Of a stretch of 64,000 nt of DNA, positions 18,575 through 50,672 are shown piece by piece (within the stretch, counting starts at the first letter, position 1; the number at the start of each line of letters is the position of its first letter). The notes beneath the pieces are model-generated. The model saw only the letters and a list, made by a program, of their open reading frames with translations. It was not told the origin of the DNA and made no database searches. Source of the stretch: a virus (taxonomy: Duplodnaviria; Caudoviricetes); the IMG/VR virus record IMGVR_UViG_3300025073_000989, one strand, 5' to 3'. The position numbers and the translations under genes are program-made.

Positions 18575-21500
18575 TTATTTCTTTTTACTTAAAATAGCCA
18601 TACTTAATCCCTTCTTAGTGGAACTATGACTAGCGCCTGTTTTATCTAAAACTGTCCAGGAACTTCCTGGGTGATGTGACCTAACCATACCACTAACATT
18701 ATGAAGTACAGGATCAGTATCCCCCTCTATCTCCTTTTCTACTAAACGTATACCGTATCCAGCCAAAATCAAAGCAGAATATAAGTCCTTGTTTTGTCCT
18801 TTTTTAGGAGTATCAAAATGCATAGCCCCACCAGAAGTTGGTGTAACTATAATATTAAGCATTTGTTTTTTTAAATCTTCTACAGTCTCATATCTAATAG
18901 CCTCCATATCTATAGTAGATACTGGGGGTTGTGGGAACAATAATTTCTTATCCTCCAACAAAGACAATGTAGCAAAATTAGCATCGGTTATCCAGGATGT
19001 ATTAAAATTAACCATCTCAAGAATATGTCTACCCTGCATATTTCTATGTTCATCGTTAGTTCTGTCTATAATAGGTGTCTTTCCACCATAACCTTCTTCC
19101 AATAAATCCATTACAGCCTTTCCGCCGCCGCCTTTATCCATAAACAACCTTATAACTCTATAGTTATCACAAACATCCTGGATGGCGGATGTTAGTTCTT
19201 GGGTAGTATGTTTTTTAAGTTCAATTACATTTACTATTCTATTGACAGTTCCTATTTTAACTATAACTACACCACAACTGGCACTACCTGCTTGGTTTGG
19301 GTCAACTCCAACAATGTATTGACCTTCCCTATCACCCGCCAGCTCTATATAAAAATTGGAACCCAAAGTACATGATTCTAACAAAGATGCTTTGAAAAAA
19401 CCATCAGAATCTGAAACCATAGCAGCCTCGTATTCCATACGAAACTCATGATTAGACATAACTCTTTTAGCTTCTTCAATATTATTTTTATCTAAAAACC
19501 CTTCTGGCAATAATGTATATGGTATTTGGTGAACAACAAAAGGACACTTAGAACTCAATAGATCACATTCTTCCATCTTTTTCCAATAAGCTCGCATCCT
19601 ATTATACATATGATTGAACTTATAATATCCTGAAGAGGTCATTATCATTTTATTCACCAATTCATCTTCAAAATCACTATCAATTGCTAAGCCTGCCTCA
19701 AGCAAAAGTTTTTTTCTTTCTAAAGCACGTACTTGTTCCATAGGATCCTGTTTGGTGGCACCCATAGGGCGTAAAACCATATCAACTATTTTGTTGGGAA
19801 CCTGTGCTAGTTCATCTACACATACCAAGTAAAAACGAGAACCACGTATTTTTGAACCATCATTACCTATTGGTAGTGCCTCTATAAAAGAGCCATTTTT
19901 ACCACCAACAGCTTTAAATTTTAAATTATGCGTATCTGCTCCGTGTGTAGGAGGACCAACACACGCTTCTCTAAATATAGATGATTTTGAGTATAGTTTT
20001 TCAATCTCACTAAACATCATTTTTGCTTGTCTAAAAGACGGGGCTATTAACCCAACTCTGTAACCTGGGTATAATAAACAACTTAGAGCAGATAACAAAC
20101 CTTGTAAATATGTATTGTGGTTTATAAAACCATTTGCAAAGTAATTAGGCTCTATGCTACATACCTCATCCATCTCAAAATCATAACAATCACCCTTCCA
20201 ATCATCTACATACACTACTGTATCAAAAAAATAGTTAGTTTTTAGAATATCTAAAAGTAGATTAAACTTGTCAATAAAATAACTATTTATTGTATAAGTA
20301 CTTGAAGATATAATTTTTATAATATCATGAATAAAGATACTAAGTGTAGAATAAGTTACTTCTTTTTTATTGCTTTTTTTAAATAATAAAAATTTTCCTG
20401 GAAAATTGTTACAATTCTTATTATTAAGTAATAGTAATATCTGTCTTAAATCCCAACAAATATCTTTTATATAAGGAATAGTATCTTTATTAACATTTAA
20501 CTTCTTAGACTCAAAATATTCATTTAGTATTTTTTGTTTTCTAGTTAACCTAAAACCAATTAACTCTTTAAACTTGAAAGCGTCTTCTGAAAACATATCA
20601 AGTAAGTAAGCTTTTCCAAAATTAGATTTGGTTTTTTTCTTCCTTAATCTGGCCACTATTCCAAAATTAAGAAGCATCAATTGTATCTCTATTAAAAGTT
20701 TTTTAGACACAGAACAACATGACACTCCGCCAGACCTTTTATCAACAGTACCATCAGTATCAAAATATCCCTGTAAAAAAGCTACTTGTGATTGTCTAGT
20801 AGAAGTTCTAATTGAATATGGTACTGATTTATTATAAGATAAAACCCTAGCTATACCGTACTTATCAAAAAACCATGAAAAATTATTATTACTAAAACCT
20901 ATTCTTAGAGTACAATCACCACTTTCGTACGATACACTGTATGGTATATTATTACGTATACAGTATTGAGAGGAAAAGGATAATATTTGTTCATCCTCAG
21001 ATGTCAAAGAAAAACTGTTTTTGTTTATACAACCGTCTCCTATCAATAAACCTATTAAATAAGCGTCATCTAAAGAAACTAAAGTATAACCAAAAGAGTT
21101 GTTCCCCCTCTGTAAGCACACTTTATCGCCTGGAATAAAATCTTCTAGTTTTTTATATATAAATTCACCATCTTTATTTAAAGTAAGTAGTGGATGGTGA
21201 TTACTGCCTTTACTAATAAATCCATTATTAGTTTTTAGTTGCTTACCTTCTATACCCTTTTCTAGACACAATCTTTTTGTACCCTTAAACCCATTTGAAG
21301 TATGTATATTAATATTCCAATCTATAACTTCTTCTTCACCGTCACGTAAATATGATGGTATAGGCGGTAAAATTTCATTTAAATAAACCAACCCTTTGTT
21401 TTTTTCATTAATAATACTTGATGTACAAACGCTTTTACCGAAACCTCTACCACATACAGCAATAACATAATCCTTAAACCACATGTCCTCAAAAACTACT

Positions 21501-21631
21501 CTTTGTATTGGAGCTAAATCTACTCCTAATAGATCGTACACTGCCACGCATGGATTCTGTCTATAAAAAGCTATTAACTGAGCACCTTGGCCCATAATAA
21601 CATCTATTTTTTTATCTCTATCAATAATCAT
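18575..21631 (-). CDS. terL: Terminase large subunit, intein-containing
   Basis: Walker A GRGFGK|T, Walker B VCVDELAQ, RuvC-like nuclease YIVGVDP and DLYSAL. Confidence 0.92.
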   Translation of the reverse strand: MIIDRDKKIDVIMGQGAQLIAFYRQNPCVAVYDLLGVDLAPIQRVVFEDMWFKDYVIAVCGRGFGKSVCTSSIINEKNKGLVYLNEILPPIPSYLRDGEEEVIDWNINIHTSNGFKGTKRLCLEKGIEGKQLKTNNGFISKGSNHHPLLTLNKDGEFIYKKLEDFIPGDKVCLQRGNNSFGYTLVSLDDAYLIGLLIGDGCINKNSFSLTSEDEQILSFSSQYCIRNNIPYSVSYESGDCTLRIGFSNNNFSWFFDKYGIARVLSYNKSVPYSIRTSTRQSQVAFLQGYFDTDGTVDKRSGGVSCCSVSKKLLIEIQLMLLNFGIVARLRKKKTKSNFGKAYLLDMFSEDAFKFKELIGFRLTRKQKILNEYFESKKLNVNKDTIPYIKDICWDLRQILLLLNNKNCNNFPGKFLLFKKSNKKEVTYSTLSIFIHDIIKIISSSTYTINSYFIDKFNLLLDILKTNYFFDTVVYVDDWKGDCYDFEMDEVCSIEPNYFANGFINHNTYLQGLLSALSCLLYPGYRVGLIAPSFRQAKMMFSEIEKLYSKSSIFREACVGPPTHGADTHNLKFKAVGGKNGSFIEALPIGNDGSKIRGSRFYLVCVDELAQVPNKIVDMVLRPMGATKQDPMEQVRALERKKLLLEAGLAIDSDFEDELVNKMIMTSSGYYKFNHMYNRMRAYWKKMEECDLLSSKCPFVVHQIPYTLLPEGFLDKNNIEEAKRVMSNHEFRMEYEAAMVSDSDGFFKASLLESCTLGSNFYIELAGDREGQYIVGVDPNQAGSASCGVVIVKIGTVNRIVNVIELKKHTTQELTSAIQDVCDNYRVIRLFMDKGGGGKAVMDLLEEGYGGKTPIIDRTNDEHRNMQGRHILEMVNFNTSWITDANFATLSLLEDKKLLFPQPPVSTIDMEAIRYETVEDLKKQMLNIIVTPTSGGAMHFDTPKKGQNKDLYSALILAGYGIRLVEKEIEGDTDPVLHNVSGMVRSHHPGSSWTVLDKTGASHSSTKKGLSMAILSKKK
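20114..21433 (-). mobile_element. 440-aa intein with LAGLIDADG homing endonuclease
   Basis: Starts at Ser67 after GFGK, ends FANGFINHN followed by Thr; two LAGLIDADG-like motifs (AYLIGLLIGDG, AFLQGYFDTDG). Confidence 0.92.
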
Positions 21632-45183: not shown

Positions 45184-46032
45184 ATGTCGAAAAAAAGTAT
45201 GGAACTAGTAACTCTAGCAGGCTGTCGTGTGGCCAAACGTCTGGATGAGCGCTTTCCGGGCATCTCATTTTCAGGAATCTACTACCCGGCGGAAGCAAAC
45301 GGTACATCAGCACGATTCGAGACCACCGTGGTGATTAATCGCGGTGACTATACCGACGCCACCGGCAAACGTGTAGAACGCGATCCCGATTACGCACGTC
45401 TGGTATTCTGGAACGGACGCGGCGCCGCTGCCGGCAAGGGTCTGGCAGATATCGCAGCAAAATGCCTGAGTCCCGGAAAAGAGATTTCCGTTATGGGAAA
45501 TGTCCACTCCTATATGGGAAGAGTGTTTTTCAAAGGCCAGCCCATGAATTTCCCCGATGGTACACCAATCGAAATCCAGAAAAATTCAATCACAATCATT
45601 CCGGGCAGCCTTCTACTCGGCGCCGACTCGGAAAAACAGGAAGACTTCGAAATCGCCAACTGGAATCGCCAGCCAGGCATATTCAGCTTCTTTGCACGAC
45701 CGGCCGGATGGGCCACACGCGGAACCCAGGATAACCAAACCTGGCAGGCCATTTCAGCCCAAAGAATGGCCACCGTCTACAACGGCGGAGATCACTACGG
45801 CTATGCCCTAATTCGCCGAAATCAAGCCAAAGCGGCGCCGCCCATCGTCGATATGAATACCCTGTCACCGCACGGCGTGGCTGCAGCAACAACACCGGTA
45901 TACACAGTACCCGGTCCAATATACCCAACCACAAGTAATGTACAGACTACCATTCCCTCCGCAGTAGCAGCAGGCCAACCGATCCCTGGAACGGTAGGTC
46001 AAGCAATCTACGCCGGCCAAGTACCTTTCTAA
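45184..46032 (+). CDS. Divergent SSB-like OB-fold protein
   Basis: VTLAG...YTDATGKRVERDPDYARLVFWNG...LADIAAKCLSPGKEISVMGNVHSY matches the SSB strand pattern; P/A/Q/T-rich tail ending QVPF. Confidence 0.7.
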   Translation: MSKKSMELVTLAGCRVAKRLDERFPGISFSGIYYPAEANGTSARFETTVVINRGDYTDATGKRVERDPDYARLVFWNGRGAAAGKGLADIAAKCLSPGKEISVMGNVHSYMGRVFFKGQPMNFPDGTPIEIQKNSITIIPGSLLLGADSEKQEDFEIANWNRQPGIFSFFARPAGWATRGTQDNQTWQAISAQRMATVYNGGDHYGYALIRRNQAKAAPPIVDMNTLSPHGVAAATTPVYTVPGPIYPTTSNVQTTIPSAVAAGQPIPGTVGQAIYAGQVPF

Positions 46033-46096: not shown

Positions 46097-46559
46097 TAAA
46101 ATACGTTAGGAATAAGCATATGATACTACATATAAGCTATAACTCCCAAAAAAATTTACAAATAAAAATAACTACAATACAATTATACTTATTTATGAAC
46201 CGGCCAAAATTATTATATCGTACAAATTATCAACCAAGGGCAAAAATATCTCTAATGAACCGAACCTAAAATTGTATCTGAGATTAAAGGAAAATACATA
46301 ATGGAAAAATATATCTGCGGAACAAGTAGACGTACTTGTAAAATTCTGACAGGAATCCTTTTGATATTAATTTTAGCTGCTGCTGTTTTACCTTTATCAA
46401 CAATAATTATATTTTTTTTGAATAAATGCTAATTTATATATAAGTATATAGGTTAGTTTAATAATACAATTAAAATAGAATAAAAGTTTATACTTGCATG
46501 GGAAGAAAAGTATACTTCATATTCAGAAATAGTTTATATTGTTATAATTAATTTTTTGA

Positions 46560-47108
46560 TTATTCTTCCTCCTCCACTGCGTATTGTATACCTTTTCGAA
46601 TTAATAGTCTAAATGCTGCTGATTTAGATATATTTTCTTTTTCAGCATATACAGCTATTGCATTTAATTCATATTCACTTAATCTAACAGACATTAACTG
46701 TTTTTGTTCTTTTTTTATTACAACAGTCTCTGCAGTTTCATCTTTTATTATAATTTTGTCATTATATTTATATTTGTTGGGCTTAGCCTGCCAATTAGCA
46801 TCTCCAGGCTTTTCTACTTTATTTCTACCGCGCTTAAACATAGCATGTGTATTTTCCATAAAAGTTCCTAAATATAAATGATCTGGGTTTACACAACCAG
46901 GAGTAGCACACTTATGTAATACACATTTTCCTTCTGGAACATCTCCTACAAGTAATAGATAACTTGCTTTATGTGCATTTACTACTTTACTATTTAATCT
47001 AAATGAACCATAACGTTTAGCATTACTCCATAACCAGCACCCACTATCCATAATAGTAAACTTACCAAAGAAACACTTCAATGCCCTTTCTTTTTCTTCC
47101 TTTTCCAT
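46560..47108 (-). CDS. HNH endonuclease fused to C-terminal ribbon-helix-helix domain
   Basis: CWLW...AHKASY...VLHKCATPGCVNPDHL.LGT..EN; C-terminal QLMSVRLSEYELNAI..YAEKENISKSAAFRLLIRKGI (RHH pattern). Confidence 0.8.
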   Translation of the reverse strand: MEKEEKERALKCFFGKFTIMDSGCWLWSNAKRYGSFRLNSKVVNAHKASYLLLVGDVPEGKCVLHKCATPGCVNPDHLYLGTFMENTHAMFKRGRNKVEKPGDANWQAKPNKYKYNDKIIIKDETAETVVIKKEQKQLMSVRLSEYELNAIAVYAEKENISKSAAFRLLIRKGIQYAVEEEE

Positions 47109-47129
47109 TTTGTAGTACCCCCCCCCTAC

Positions 47130-47555
47130 TTAAAAAACGTAATACAAAAATTAGTTATACCCCATCTACAAAATGTAGAAGGTATTAAAAAACGTAATAC
47201 AAAAATTAGTTATACCCCATCTACAAAATGTAGAAGGTATTAAAAAACGTAATACAAAAATTAGTTATACCCCATCTACAAAATGTAGAAGGTATTAAAA
47301 AACGTAATACAAAAATTAGTTATACCCCATCTACAAAATGTAGAAGGTATTAAAAAACGTAATACAAAAATTAGTTATACCCCATCTACAAAATGTAGAA
47401 GGTATTAAAAAACGTAATACAAAAATTAGTTATACCCCATCTACAAAATGTAGAAGGTATTAAAAAACGTAATACAAAAATTAGTTATACCCCATCTACA
47501 AAATGTAGAAGGTATTAAAAAACGTAATACAAAAATTAGTTATACCCCATCTACA
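47130..47555. repeat. 55-bp perfect tandem array x7.7 with internal hairpin
   Basis: TTAAAAAACGTAATACAAAAATTAGTTATACCCCATCTACAAAATGTAGAAGGTA, units start 47130, 47185...47515; each has a TCTACA-AAA-TGTAGA dyad. Confidence 0.97.
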
Positions 47556-47870
47556 TTTTATTTAATTATATTTTATCTAATTTGTAGGATACCTATAATA
47601 TAATCATTTGTATTACAAAAACAAGCCTCCTACAAAAATAAATTATATAGTCTATATCTACCTTATTATAGAGCTAAATCACTGAATATGGTTCATATAG
47701 CCTATTTTCTATAACAAAATTAATAAATTGAATAACAAAGGGGTATAAAAATTAATAAAAAGAAGAATAAACTATGGGTATTGTATACTACTATATTAAA
47801 GCATCTAAACCCAATTTTACTCGCCGGCTAAAAGATAACTATATTAATAACTTATGTGAGGGACTAATCT

Positions 47871-48456: not shown

Positions 48457-48500
48457 GTCGATCGAAATTTCGATCGACGAGTAAAGTGTCTTCGATCGAC
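48457..48500. repeat. Perfect 22-bp palindrome plus a repeated half-site
   Basis: GTCGATCGAAATTTCGATCGAC (48457-48478); TTCGATCGAC again at 48491-48500. Confidence 0.92.
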
Positions 48501-48540
48501 TACTAGGGATATTGTAATACAAAATGTAATACATAAATAA

Positions 48541-48690
48541 GTATAGTATAGTATACCGCAATATAGTATACCGCAATATAGTATAGTATAGTAAAACAGT
48601 AATATACCGCAGTGTAGTAAACCGCAATATAGTATACAGTTATACAAGAGTATAGTATAAAGTAGTATACCGTAGTATAGTATAATATAT
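48541..48690. repeat. Low-complexity TATAG/ACCGCA repeat tract
   Basis: TATAGTATACCGCAA x2 (48547-48576), four ACCGCA, many TATAG units. Confidence 0.8.
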
Positions 48691-50096: not shown

Positions 50097-50672
50097 ATGG
50101 ACAACAATAGTTGAATACCAAAAGTCGGAGATATCTGCACACAGAAAAAGCAAAAAAGTATAAAATTAGGATCTCATCACTTTAATTATCTTATAGATAT
50201 GTTCTTTGCGCAAGTATATGCAAGATTTAATCATATAGCTATTGCTGAAATTATACTTTCCATTTTGGGCGAGCCTAAGATTTTACTTACAGTAAATACA
50301 GTACATAACTACATTAGTCCTATTGATATGATGATTAGAAAAGGGGCTATTGCAAGTTATAAAGATTCGTTAATGGTAATTCCGTTCAATATGGAAGATG
50401 GTTTATTAATTTGTAGAGGAAAATCCAATGAGGGCTGGAATTTTTCCGCCCCTCATGGGGCCGGTAGAATTGGTAGTCGCGCTTGGGCAAAAGAAAATCT
50501 AAATCTTGAACAAGCAAGAGCAGGCATGTCGTCAAAAGGAATTTATTCTTCTAATATTCCAATAGACGAAACCAAGGGAGCCTACAAATCATCAGAAATG
50601 ATAAAGGCAGCGATTGGGCCTACAGCTGAAATAATTCATCAAGTAAGACCAATACTTAATATTAAAGCGTGA
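50097..50672 (+). pseudogene. rtcB: RtcB RNA ligase C-terminal fragment fused to short leader
   Basis: YL.DM..AQ.YA..N, HNY, RKGA, IPFNM, SAPHGAGR, DE...AYK present; N-terminal metal-binding motifs absent; in-frame ATG 50097 with TGA at 50112. Confidence 0.75.

What the first reader, a model, noticed from the sequence alone, without database searches (positions are those of the whole stretch)
46560..47559. 55-bp array with a Cas12a-repeat-like hairpin feeding into an HNH-RHH gene
Seen: 7.7 identical units lie about 20 nt upstream of the HNH-RHH start. On the gene strand each reads ...TTTTTTAATACCTTCTACATTTTGTAGAT followed by GGGGTATAACTAATTTTTG. Flipped half-sites bound the array (CATTTTGTAG over the ATG at 47106-47115; TCTACATTTT at 47550-47559), and a 9-G run forms the RBS. 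Established: Cas12a repeats end TTTAAATAATTTCTAC-loop-GTAGAT; the 20-nt end here matches the Lb handle AAUUUCUACUAAGUGUAGAU at 14/20 with the stem intact; phage repeat-mimic RNAs (Racrs) can inhibit CRISPR; RHH domains bind arrays of short dyads. Inference: either a multimeric crRNA-mimic decoy against type V-A CRISPR, or an operator/centromere array for the RHH-guided HNH nuclease (possibly a guided or addiction-type nuclease module).
Basis: partly seen in the sequence, partly recalled or inferred. Interest (0 to 1): 0.78.

Follow-up and report, generated by a model that had tools for sequence, protein, structure and literature searches.

The report
Repressor operator array before phage nuclease
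The 55-bp repeat array is real, but it is most likely the multiplied DNA binding-site region of a small phage repressor that in this phage has become fused to a DNA-cutting enzyme. Its likeness to a Cas12a CRISPR repeat looks coincidental.

Summary
The array is real: 7.7 identical 55-bp units at 47130-47555, 21 nt upstream of a 182-aa gene. That gene fuses an HNH_3 (His-Me) nuclease domain to a C-terminal ribbon-helix-helix (RHH) domain. Copy number is unresolved: six of seven independent assemblies break inside the array and one shows 1.7 units.

The decisive evidence is comparative. A sister phage contig (L141) has a plain 60-aa RHH gene at the same place and in the same orientation. It is 51% identical to the RHH part here and has no nuclease domain. 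It is preceded by a near-consensus promoter and six GTATTAC boxes, three of them inside 25-bp palindromes.

This window keeps the same -10 region, one GTATTAC box in the promoter spacer and one box in every 55-bp unit. The array is therefore best read as an amplified operator-bearing leader of an autoregulated RHH locus that has acquired a nuclease domain.

The Cas12a reading fails every test I could run:
- The AAUU motif and the pseudoknot pair are not kept.
- No matching CRISPR array turned up in the metagenome scans.
- The same 17-mer serves as a CI/Cro-type operator dyad in another phage.
- The sister phage's palindrome is TCTAT..ATAGA.

The verdict is a new variant of known kinds, of moderate interest. 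RHH binding and nuclease activity are inferred, not shown. The same stretch was also noted in an overlapping window of this genome.

The parts
46560..47108 (-). P0001, a 182-aa HNH_3::RHH fusion protein (nuclease domain about residues 1-100, disordered linker 106-140, RHH 136-176)
   Evidence: Pfam HNH_3 7.9e-6, above its cut-off. phrog_1872 endonuclease 3.4e-27. All family-invariant His/Cys/Asn residues are kept, but the nearly invariant D68 is Ala. The AF2 N-domain has pLDDT above 90. Weak Foldseek matches to I-PpoI and I-HmuI.
46581..46703 (-). RHH domain of P0001 (residues 136-176)
   Evidence: DUF6290 6.5e-5 and RHH_1 0.0098, both below their cut-offs. AF2 helices 145-157 and 162-171. Weak Foldseek matches to CopG, MazE, VapB and NikR. 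51% identity over 45 aa to the stand-alone RHH P0165 of sister phage L141, E 3e-12.
47099..47115 (+). Degenerate, flipped copy of the unit's dyad core, lying over the start codon and first codons
   Evidence: 15/17 to CCTTCTACATTTTGTAG, with 0.32 matches expected in the window. 25-nt, 80% inverted repeat with 47166-47190. In the RNA fold the AUG region pairs with CAUUUUGUAG of an upstream unit.
47118..47126 (-). G9 run, the presumed Shine-Dalgarno substitute, 9 nt before the AUG
   Evidence: Read directly from the sequence. It is 9 or 10 G in different assemblies.
47130..47555 (.). 7.7 identical 55-bp units. Each holds one GTAATAC box (47139, 47194 ... 47524) and one 34-bp imperfect palindrome around TCTACA-AAA-TGTAGA (47165-47179 ... 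47495-47509).
   Evidence: TRF. Motif searches. Box list. Unit hairpin of 12 bp, -10.9 kcal/mol.
47576..47589 (.). Possible further degenerate dyad (TCTAATTTGTAGGA) between the promoter and the array
   Evidence: Read from the sequence. It lies inside the stretch that aligns with L141's operator region. Weak.
47597..47624 (-). Inferred leftward promoter of the HNH-RHH gene: -35 TTGTTT (47619-47624), GTATTAC box in the spacer (47610-47616), -10 TATATT (47597-47602)
   Evidence: The -10 region AATGATTATATTATA is 14/15 identical to that of L141's promoter TTGACA-17-TATATT, which scores 11/12. The window's own -35 is weak and falls below the scan's threshold.
48513..48539 (-). Double GTATTAC box, identical over 27 nt to the element just downstream of the RHH promoter in L141
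   Evidence: Exact 27-nt match between L141 1969-1995 and window 48513-48539. The longest match in 30 shuffles was 17.

Best explanation
The array is the amplified operator region of an autoregulated ribbon-helix-helix (RHH) repressor locus that this group of jumbo phages carries at this position.

In the sister phage the locus is simple. A 60-aa RHH gene is read leftward from a near-consensus sigma-70 promoter. Six GTATTAC boxes lie around that promoter and in the leader, three of them inside 25-bp palindromes.

In this phage three things differ:
- An HNH_3 (His-Me) nuclease domain and a roughly 35-residue linker are fused in front of the same RHH.
- One GTATTAC box sits in the promoter spacer.
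- The leader between the promoter and the start codon consists of 7.7 (or some other number of) identical 55-bp units. Each unit carries one GTATTAC box and a 34-bp imperfect palindrome. One more degenerate palindrome lies over the start codon.

Inferred mechanism: RHH dimers of the protein bind these sites cooperatively and coat the promoter and leader. This shuts off the gene's own transcription and so keeps a potentially dangerous nuclease scarce, much as I-TevI represses its own gene. It also tethers the nuclease domain to this kind of site.

Shown here: homology, synteny, shared boxes, the conserved -10 region and intact nuclease motifs. Inferred: DNA binding, repression and nuclease activity.

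The resemblance to the Cas12a handle is a coincidence of a 5-bp palindrome arm plus one U.
For: 1. Orthologous stand-alone RHH. P0165 (L141 1684-1866, minus strand) is 51% identical to P0001 132-176, E 3e-12. It lies next to the ortholog (51% identity) of the window's 282-aa neighbour gene and has the same orientation.
2. L141 has 6 GTATTAC boxes in the 234 bp upstream of that gene. 0.05 were expected and the maximum in 2000 shuffles was 2. Three of them lie in 25-bp palindromes. They sit behind the promoter TTGACA-17-TATATT.
3. The window shares the -10 region, a box in the promoter spacer, one box per unit and a 27-nt exact double-box match. A colinear local alignment joins the last unit and right flank to L141's operator region.
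4. Both RHH proteins have Ser and Arg at the strand positions that align with DNA-facing Thr6 and Thr8 of CopG. This is my own reading of the alignment, and it predicts similar specificity.
5. Relatives of the HNH_3 family carry a small C-terminal HTH where P0001 has the RHH. This is the usual build of a nuclease plus a DNA-binding module.
6. More distant relatives (L128, L130, L142) have neither this gene nor this array at the locus.
7. RHH proteins binding arrays of short boxes are well known: ParG on parH (PMC3130281) and pCXC100 ParB (PMC3074162). Autorepression by a homing endonuclease is known from I-TevI (PMC2988022).
Against: - No binding data exist. Only two RHH/array pairs are available, so co-variation cannot be tested.
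- The orientation of the GTATTAC box relative to the gene is opposite in the two phages.
- The large palindrome in the unit (TCTACA..TGTAGA) is not the L141 palindrome. Which element the RHH reads is therefore open.
- Eight perfect copies are far more than an operator needs. Perfect identity points to recent slippage, so the multi-copy state may have no function.
- The 55-bp period is 5.2 helical turns, so sites are not in phase.
- The RHH assignment rests on sub-threshold Pfam hits plus a monomer model.
- The window's -35 is weak.
Confidence: 0.6

Rival explanations
1. Neutral or near-neutral minisatellite. A 55-bp piece of the operator-bearing leader expanded by replication slippage or unequal recombination, or was inflated or collapsed by assembly. 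The extra copies do nothing in particular, and only the ancestral one or two sites matter.
For: - The units are 100% identical.
- Assemblies disagree on copy number, 1.7 against at least 3.6 against 7.7.
- All sampled populations are at least 99.87% identical, so nothing shows the multi-copy state is old or conserved.
- Related phages have other, unrelated perfect short arrays in the same region, for example 27 bp x 3.4 in L130.
Against: - The array is present in every assembly that reaches it.
- A unit that holds a binding box will titrate the protein whether or not it was selected to do so.
- This rival overlaps with the best explanation and does not exclude it.
Confidence: 0.15
2. RNA-level control in cis. 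The array is transcribed as a roughly 480-nt leader. Its hairpins and its complementarity to the start region sequester the G-run and AUG, keeping translation of the nuclease low. Homing endonuclease genes of T4 are silenced in this way.
For: - The conserved -10 region lies to the right of the array, so the array is probably in the leader.
- Each unit holds CAUUUUGUAG, which is complementary to CUACAAAAUG at the start codon. The 25-nt inverted repeat is 80% complementary.
- The predicted fold pairs the AUG and the G run with unit sequence. The whole-leader z-score is -5.
- Translational silencing of T4 endonuclease genes by RNA structure is reviewed in PMC2988022.
Against: - One complementary segment would be enough.
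- Single-unit folds are only modestly better than shuffles (z -2 to -2.5).
- Any palindromic operator array folds well as RNA.
- The promoter is inferred, not mapped.
Confidence: 0.12
3. Centromere-like or origin-like site. The RHH acts like ParR or ParG and assembles on the tandem sites to segregate or position phage DNA, perhaps with the actin-like ATPase encoded 20 kb away, or to mark a replication start.
For: - RHH centromere-binding proteins coat arrays of direct repeats (PMC3130281, PMC3074162).
- The related phage L128 has a ParB-like gene at the same locus next to short repeats.
- The region to the right (48458-48690) is a conserved, repeat-rich, gene-poor stretch.
Against: - No partition ATPase gene adjoins the RHH gene.
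- The sister phage's layout (promoter, boxes, gene) is that of an autoregulated repressor.
- GC skew shows nothing special at the array beyond the local reversal of the gene.
- The better origin candidate is the strand switch near 37.2 kb, with its 17-bp repeats.
Confidence: 0.07
4. Cas12a decoy or crRNA-like array. The leader RNA is bound and cut by the host's Cas12a into 55-nt units. These occupy the enzyme (Racr-like) or guide it to a host promoter (Cracr-like).
For: - On the gene strand each unit reads UUCUAC-AUUUU-GUAGAU, with the stem, the 3' U and the loop length of a V-A handle. Identity to real handles is 15/20.
- The orientation is sense to the probable transcript.
- V-A Racrs and Cracr arrays exist (PMC10651486; bioRxiv 10.1101/2024.10.29.618823).
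- Other multi-copy repeat mimics have been noted in this scan.
Against: - The AAUU motif needed for maturation and the A-U reverse-Hoogsteen pair of the pseudoknot are replaced by ACCU and a loop-first A (PMC6507119; handle conservation in PMC10200996).
- The flanks AUACC/GGUAU extend the hairpin into what would be the guide.
- Validated RacrVA1-2 are 34-36/36 identical to a host repeat and are solitary.
- Rfam gives nothing at E up to 10.
- No CRISPR-spaced array with this stem-loop or with the C-variant handle was found in 241 million metagenome records.
- The same 17-mer occurs as operator-type dyads in a CI/Cro switch. It also occurs in a tandem array of a genome where no Cas12a match was found.
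- The sister phage's homologous palindrome reads TCTAT..ATAGA.
- No acr or aca genes were recognised nearby.
- Cas12a is rare: 1 of 401 Bacteroidota genomes sampled.
Confidence: 0.04

Closest known systems
Autoregulated RHH repressors and RHH array binders (CopG, Arc/Mnt, RelB, omega, ParG on parH, ParR on parC)
   Same: A small ribbon-helix-helix domain is encoded next to repeated short dyad or direct-repeat boxes that overlap its own promoter and leader. The sister phage has exactly this layout.
   Different: Here the RHH is the C-terminal domain of a nuclease. The site-bearing segment is multiplied into perfect 55-bp units. No binding has been shown.
Free-standing HNH homing endonucleases of phages (T4 mob genes, I-HmuI; Pfam HNH_3 / PHROG 1872)
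   Same: An N-terminal His-Me nuclease domain is joined to a separate C-terminal DNA-binding module. The gene sits in an intergenic slot that differs between related phages.
   Different: The DNA-binding module is an RHH orthologous to a resident repressor, not the family's usual HTH. No full-length relative was found in 5.8 and 1.8 billion proteins. Mobility was not observed.
I-TevI as transcriptional autorepressor (PMC2988022)
   Same: A homing endonuclease whose DNA-binding domain also binds an operator at its own promoter.
   Different: I-TevI is a GIY-YIG enzyme with one operator. Here there would be about nine sites, and the repressor function appears ancestral to the nuclease fusion.
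RNA anti-CRISPRs of type V-A (RacrVA1-3, PMC10651486) and Cracr arrays (bioRxiv 10.1101/2024.10.29.618823)
   Same: A cas-less phage element with a hairpin that ends GUAGAU, probably transcribed in the sense orientation. Multi-copy forms of such mimics exist.
   Different: The defining AAUU motif and the pseudoknot pair are not kept. There is no cognate host repeat, no terminator, no acr neighbour, and only 15/20 identity to real handles.

Membership tests
Type V-A repeat mimic (Racr / Cracr) | Near-identity to a CRISPR repeat of a (host) V-A system over the repeat length | tested here: not met
   Validated RacrVA1 and RacrVA2 are 36/36 and 34/36 identical. The unit matches real handles at 15/20. 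No CRISPR-spaced array with this stem-loop or the C-variant was found in the metagenome scans. The host is unknown.
Type V-A repeat mimic (Racr / Cracr) | Handle features needed by Cas12a: AAUU motif, 5-bp stem, U-U pair, A-U reverse-Hoogsteen pair | tested here: not met
   The stem and the 3' U are kept. AAUU is replaced by ACCU and the first loop base is A instead of U, so the A-U tertiary pair cannot form (sequence; requirements from PMC6507119).
Type V-A repeat mimic (Racr / Cracr) | Own promoter close upstream, terminator, frequent acr/aca neighbours | tested here: inconclusive
   A probable promoter lies right of the array, but it is the RHH gene's promoter. No terminator was found. No recognisable acr or aca gene is present.
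Type V-A repeat mimic (Racr / Cracr) | Binding or processing by Cas12a and relief of interference | not testable with these tools
   This needs biochemistry or plaque assays.
HNH_3 / His-Me free-standing homing endonuclease | His-Me finger with conserved His, Cys/His zinc ligands and Asn | tested here: met
   Pfam HNH_3 scores above its cut-off. H46, H65, C67, C72, H77 and N86 are invariant and present. The nearly invariant D68 is Ala.
HNH_3 / His-Me free-standing homing endonuclease | Presence/absence polymorphism between related genomes and site-specific cleavage of the empty site | tested here: inconclusive
   The nuclease domain is absent from the sister phage's orthologous gene and the whole gene is absent from more distant relatives. 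All 24 contigs of this phage species that were read carry it. Cleavage was not tested.
Ribbon-helix-helix DNA-binding domain | Strand-helix-helix fold with an N-terminal strand of alternating polar and hydrophobic residues, dimeric | tested here: inconclusive
   DUF6290 6.5e-5 and RHH_1 0.0098 are both below their cut-offs. P0165 hits the same profile positions. Two helices have pLDDT 77-86, but the strand is not modelled in the monomer. Foldseek matches to CopG and MazE are weak.
Autoregulated RHH repressor/operator module | Repeated dyad or box sites overlapping the gene's own promoter or leader | tested here: met
   L141 has 6 boxes in 234 bp behind TTGACA-17-TATATT. The window has a box in the promoter spacer and one per unit.
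Autoregulated RHH repressor/operator module | The protein binds those sites and represses | not testable with these tools
   This needs EMSA, footprinting and reporter assays.

The most novel reading that the evidence does not exclude
A homing-type HNH nuclease has captured the resident repressor's RHH as its targeting domain. Its cleavage targets would then be the operator boxes that lie next to the plain RHH gene in sister phages.

A cut there would be repaired from this genome, using the RHH coding region and the promoter/operator region as homology arms. That would copy the nuclease domain and the array into the rival phage. The amplified array in the carrier's own genome would serve as a repressing sink that keeps the enzyme low and occupied.

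This would be a route by which a mobile nuclease acquires specificity for the very locus it sits in.
Probability: 0.2. Interest if true: 0.65.

Novelty: new variant of a known kind. Interest (0 to 1): 0.4.

Why it matters
The finding removes a tempting but unsupported anti-CRISPR call. It also shows, with concrete counter-examples, how easily a 5-bp palindrome arm can imitate the Cas12a handle.

On the positive side, it documents a natural pair of states of one locus in sister jumbo phages: a plain repressor with its operators, and a nuclease-repressor fusion with an amplified operator leader. That pair gives a directly testable case of how modular phage nucleases pick up DNA-binding specificity and how they may be kept in check.

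An RHH-targeted His-Me nuclease with a defined short box could also be of interest as a small programmable-by-domain-swap nuclease scaffold.

Tried and rejected
- Near and protein searches of INPHARED phages and of IMG/VR found no close relative of the phage, the fusion protein or the RHH.
- No whole genome is held for this window, so the host and its CRISPR content could not be examined.
- The genome-contig scan for the 16-mer gave about 120 or more single chance hits. It also gave one 41-bp degenerate tandem array in a Prolixibacteraceae MAG. No Cas12a match was found in that MAG, which may be incomplete, and I treat the array as unrelated.
- Collecting natural V-A repeats for a covariance model was given up, because only 1 of 401 genomes searched had Cas12a.
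- No k-mer of the unit recurs elsewhere in the window beyond chance, so it is not a dispersed promoter motif.
- No sigma-70-like promoter or intrinsic terminator lies inside the units.
- The full HMMER search returned 155,273 HNH_3 relatives but no full-length HNH-RHH match among the best 150. The search restricted to the RHH region found only the protein itself.
- The IMG/VR scan for the 19-nt double box gave 11 hits. That is about the chance level for an AT-rich 19-mer, and none had an RHH gene nearby.
- Searches of PDB sequences found nothing.
- CsrA-type GGA motifs, attC cores and phased A-tracts were considered by eye and not found.
Full report
**Observation**

The window is part of an uncultured jumbo phage. 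It encodes a terminase, a major-head-like protein, PhoH and many homing-type nucleases. The protein of interest occurs on contigs of up to 275,832 bp.

Tandem Repeats Finder reports 7.7 copies of a 55-bp unit at 47130-47555 with 100% matches. The array ends 21 nt from the ATG (47108) of a minus-strand ORF of 182 codons, 46560-47108. A run of nine G (gene strand, 47118-47126) lies between the array and the ATG.

The dyad TCTACA-AAA-TGTAGA occurs seven times in the window, all in the array, against 0.18 expected.

Seven independent assemblies of the same phage are at least 99.87% identical to the window. Six of them end inside the array with 0 to 3.6 units. One 80-kb contig spans it with only 1.7 units. 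The array is therefore real, but its length is not settled by short reads. The G run is 9 or 10 long in different assemblies.

**The gene**

P0001 has an N-terminal HNH_3 domain: Pfam above its cut-off and PHROG 1872 'endonuclease' at 3.4e-27. In an alignment with 17 relatives it keeps every invariant His, Cys and Asn of the His-Me finger. One nearly invariant Asp (D68) is Ala.

Those relatives carry a short helix-turn-helix after the nuclease domain. P0001 instead has a linker that AlphaFold2 leaves disordered (106-140), followed by a strand-helix-helix segment. That segment gives sub-threshold hits to DUF6290 and RHH_1. It is modelled as two helices at pLDDT 77-86 and gives weak Foldseek matches to CopG, MazE, VapB and NikR. 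The N-domain weakly matches I-PpoI and I-HmuI.

No full-length relative was found among 5.8 billion clustered proteins, or among the best hits of an exhaustive HMMER search of 1.8 billion representatives.

**The decisive comparison**

The 282-aa gene to the left (45184-46032) has orthologs in related phages. In the closest one with DNA available (L141, 51% identical), the next gene on the opposite strand is a 60-aa protein, P0165. P0165 is 51% identical over 45 residues to P0001 132-176, with E 3e-12 pairwise and 3e-10 by tblastn. It hits the same DUF6290 profile positions.

The sister phage therefore has the RHH alone, at the same place, in the same orientation and without a nuclease domain.

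Upstream of that gene lie these features:
- A leftward promoter, TTGACA-17-TATATT, scoring 11 of 12.
- Six GTATTAC boxes within 234 bp, where 0.05 are expected and 2000 shuffles never gave more than 2.
- Three of the boxes are embedded in 25-bp palindromes, TCTATTTGTGTATTACAWAAATAGA.

The window shares these features:
- The -10 region (AATGATTATATTATA, 47594-47608).
- A GTATTAC box in the promoter spacer (47610-47616).
- One box in each 55-bp unit.
- A colinear local alignment of the last unit and right flank with L141's operator region.
- A 27-nt exact match of L141's double box at 48513-48539. The longest match in shuffles was 17.

More distant relatives (L128, L130, L142) have neither this gene nor this array at the locus. 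L128 has a ParB-like gene there. A repeat-rich stretch further right is shared by all of them: three TCGATCGA palindromes followed by short (A)TAGTA repeats.

**Reading**

The simplest account is that the ancestral locus was an autoregulated RHH repressor with several operator boxes in its promoter and leader. In this phage the repressor gained an N-terminal His-Me nuclease domain, and a 55-bp piece of the operator-bearing leader was multiplied.

Each unit holds a GTATTAC box and a 34-bp imperfect palindrome. A further degenerate, flipped copy of the palindrome core lies over the start codon: 15 of 17 matches, with 0.32 such matches expected in the whole window, and it is part of a 25-nt inverted repeat.

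I infer that RHH dimers coat the promoter and leader and shut the gene off. This would keep the nuclease scarce and tether it to such sites. RHH proteins that bind arrays of short boxes are well documented (PMC3130281, PMC3074162), and so is a homing endonuclease that represses its own promoter (I-TevI, PMC2988022).

Binding, repression and cleavage have not been shown. Which of the two elements in the unit the RHH reads also remains open.

**Why not Cas12a**

On the gene strand each unit reads ACCUUCUAC-AUUUU-GUAGAU. Against real V-A handles obtained with tools, it matches 15 of 20 aligned columns. Those handles are the repeat of a Bacteroidota Cas12a locus...AAATTTCTACTATTGTAGAT, and the M. 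bovoculi repeat listed with RacrVA1. The matches are essentially the 5-bp stem, two U before it and the 3' U.

The evidence against is as follows:
- The AAUU motif, stated to be required for crRNA maturation, is replaced. So are both partners of the A-U reverse-Hoogsteen pair of the pseudoknot (PMC6507119). The handle is described as highly conserved across Cas12a systems (PMC10200996).
- The flanks AUACC/GGUAU extend the hairpin to 12 bp, into what would be the guide.
- Validated V-A Racrs are solitary and 34-36/36 identical to a host repeat.
- Rfam gives no hit even at E up to 10.
- A scan of 241 million metagenome records found no array with this exact stem-loop at CRISPR spacing.
- The four arrays with the C-variant handle are 39-, 63- and 78-bp tandem repeats, not CRISPRs.
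- The identical 17-mer TTCTACATTTTGTAGAT, with a second copy carrying another loop, lies between a cro-like and a CI-like (HTH plus S24) gene next to an integrase in an IMG/VR phage. By context it is an operator dyad.
- The same 17-mer also forms a 41-bp tandem array in a genome where no Cas12a match was found.
- The homologous palindrome of the sister phage reads TCTAT..ATAGA. This keeps the symmetry but not the Cas12a stem.

I cannot exclude a V-A system in the unknown host, so I leave this reading at about 4%.

**Other rivals**

- The multi-copy state may be a recent, functionless expansion. The units are perfectly identical, copy number is discordant between assemblies, and the samples have no evolutionary depth.
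- The transcribed leader may also act as RNA. Every unit is complementary to the start region, and the predicted folds sequester the AUG and the G run. T4 silences its endonuclease genes in this way (PMC2988022).
- A centromere or origin role is possible but has little direct support.

These rivals are not mutually exclusive with the main reading.

**Novelty and value**

Both ingredients are known kinds: an RHH repressor with operator arrays, and a modular free-standing HNH nuclease. Their fusion, with the unfused state preserved in a sister phage and an amplified operator leader, is a new variant.

The most novel reading that remains open is that the nuclease borrowed the local repressor's DNA-binding domain. 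It would then cut the operator region of sister phages and home into exactly this locus.

The same stretch was also noted from an overlapping window of this genome. On other genomes the scan has seen genuine multi-copy CRISPR-repeat mimics. In their write-ups these differ from this case by matching a host repeat and lying beside acr genes.

Noticed in passing
window 48458-48690; L128 10820-11130; L130 10700-10916; L141 2400-2764: A gene-poor stretch is conserved in layout across related jumbo phages: three TCGATCGA palindromes followed by many short (A)TAGTA / TATAGTATACCGCA-type repeats. It could be a regulatory or origin-like region. The HNH-RHH gene and the 55-bp array lie just left of it.
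   Followed up: partly
L128 9467-10687 (-): In a 276-kb related phage, the slot occupied here by the HNH-RHH gene holds a 406-aa ParB-like partition protein/nuclease gene (phrog_4715, 3.7e-16), also reverse-oriented and next to short tandem repeats. The slot seems to collect DNA-binding nuclease-type genes.
   Followed up: partly
window 47118-47126: The homopolymer G run before the start codon is 9 G in the window and in four assemblies but 10 G in L003 and L007. L003 also has AA for TA after it. This is either sequencing noise at a homopolymer or slippage that would change the spacing to the AUG.
   Followed up: no
window 50199-50672: The RtcB-like ORF covers only the C-terminal part of the family profile (positions 237-425 of 426). 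The upstream frame is full of stops, so no N-terminal half lies in that reading frame directly upstream. It looks like a gene fragment.
   Followed up: partly
L140 9672-9745 (IMGVR_UViG_3300021426_000198): A temperate phage's cro-like/CI-like divergent region holds two dyads, TTCTACA-N3-TGTAGAT, 58 bp apart. The first is identical over 17 nt to the core of the array here. It is a useful caution that Cas12a-handle look-alikes occur as ordinary operators.
   Followed up: yes
L061 5176-5340 (Prolixibacteraceae MAG): A 41-bp degenerate tandem array of five units, each starting TTCTACATTTTGTAGAT followed by related 24-nt segments, lies in a non-coding gap. No Cas12a match was found in that genome, which may be incomplete. 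Its nature is unknown.
   Followed up: partly
window 46301-46432 (+): A 43-aa ORF with a hydrophobic, membrane-like segment and a promoter-like site (TTTACA-17-TACAAT at 46155-46183) lies between the upstream terminator and the 3' end of the HNH-RHH gene. No family match was found.
   Followed up: no
window 18575-21631 (-): The large terminase ORF is 1018 aa. It carries an N-terminal half that matches endonuclease and helicase PHROGs ahead of the terminase part. This suggests an inserted or fused nuclease-type module.
   Followed up: no
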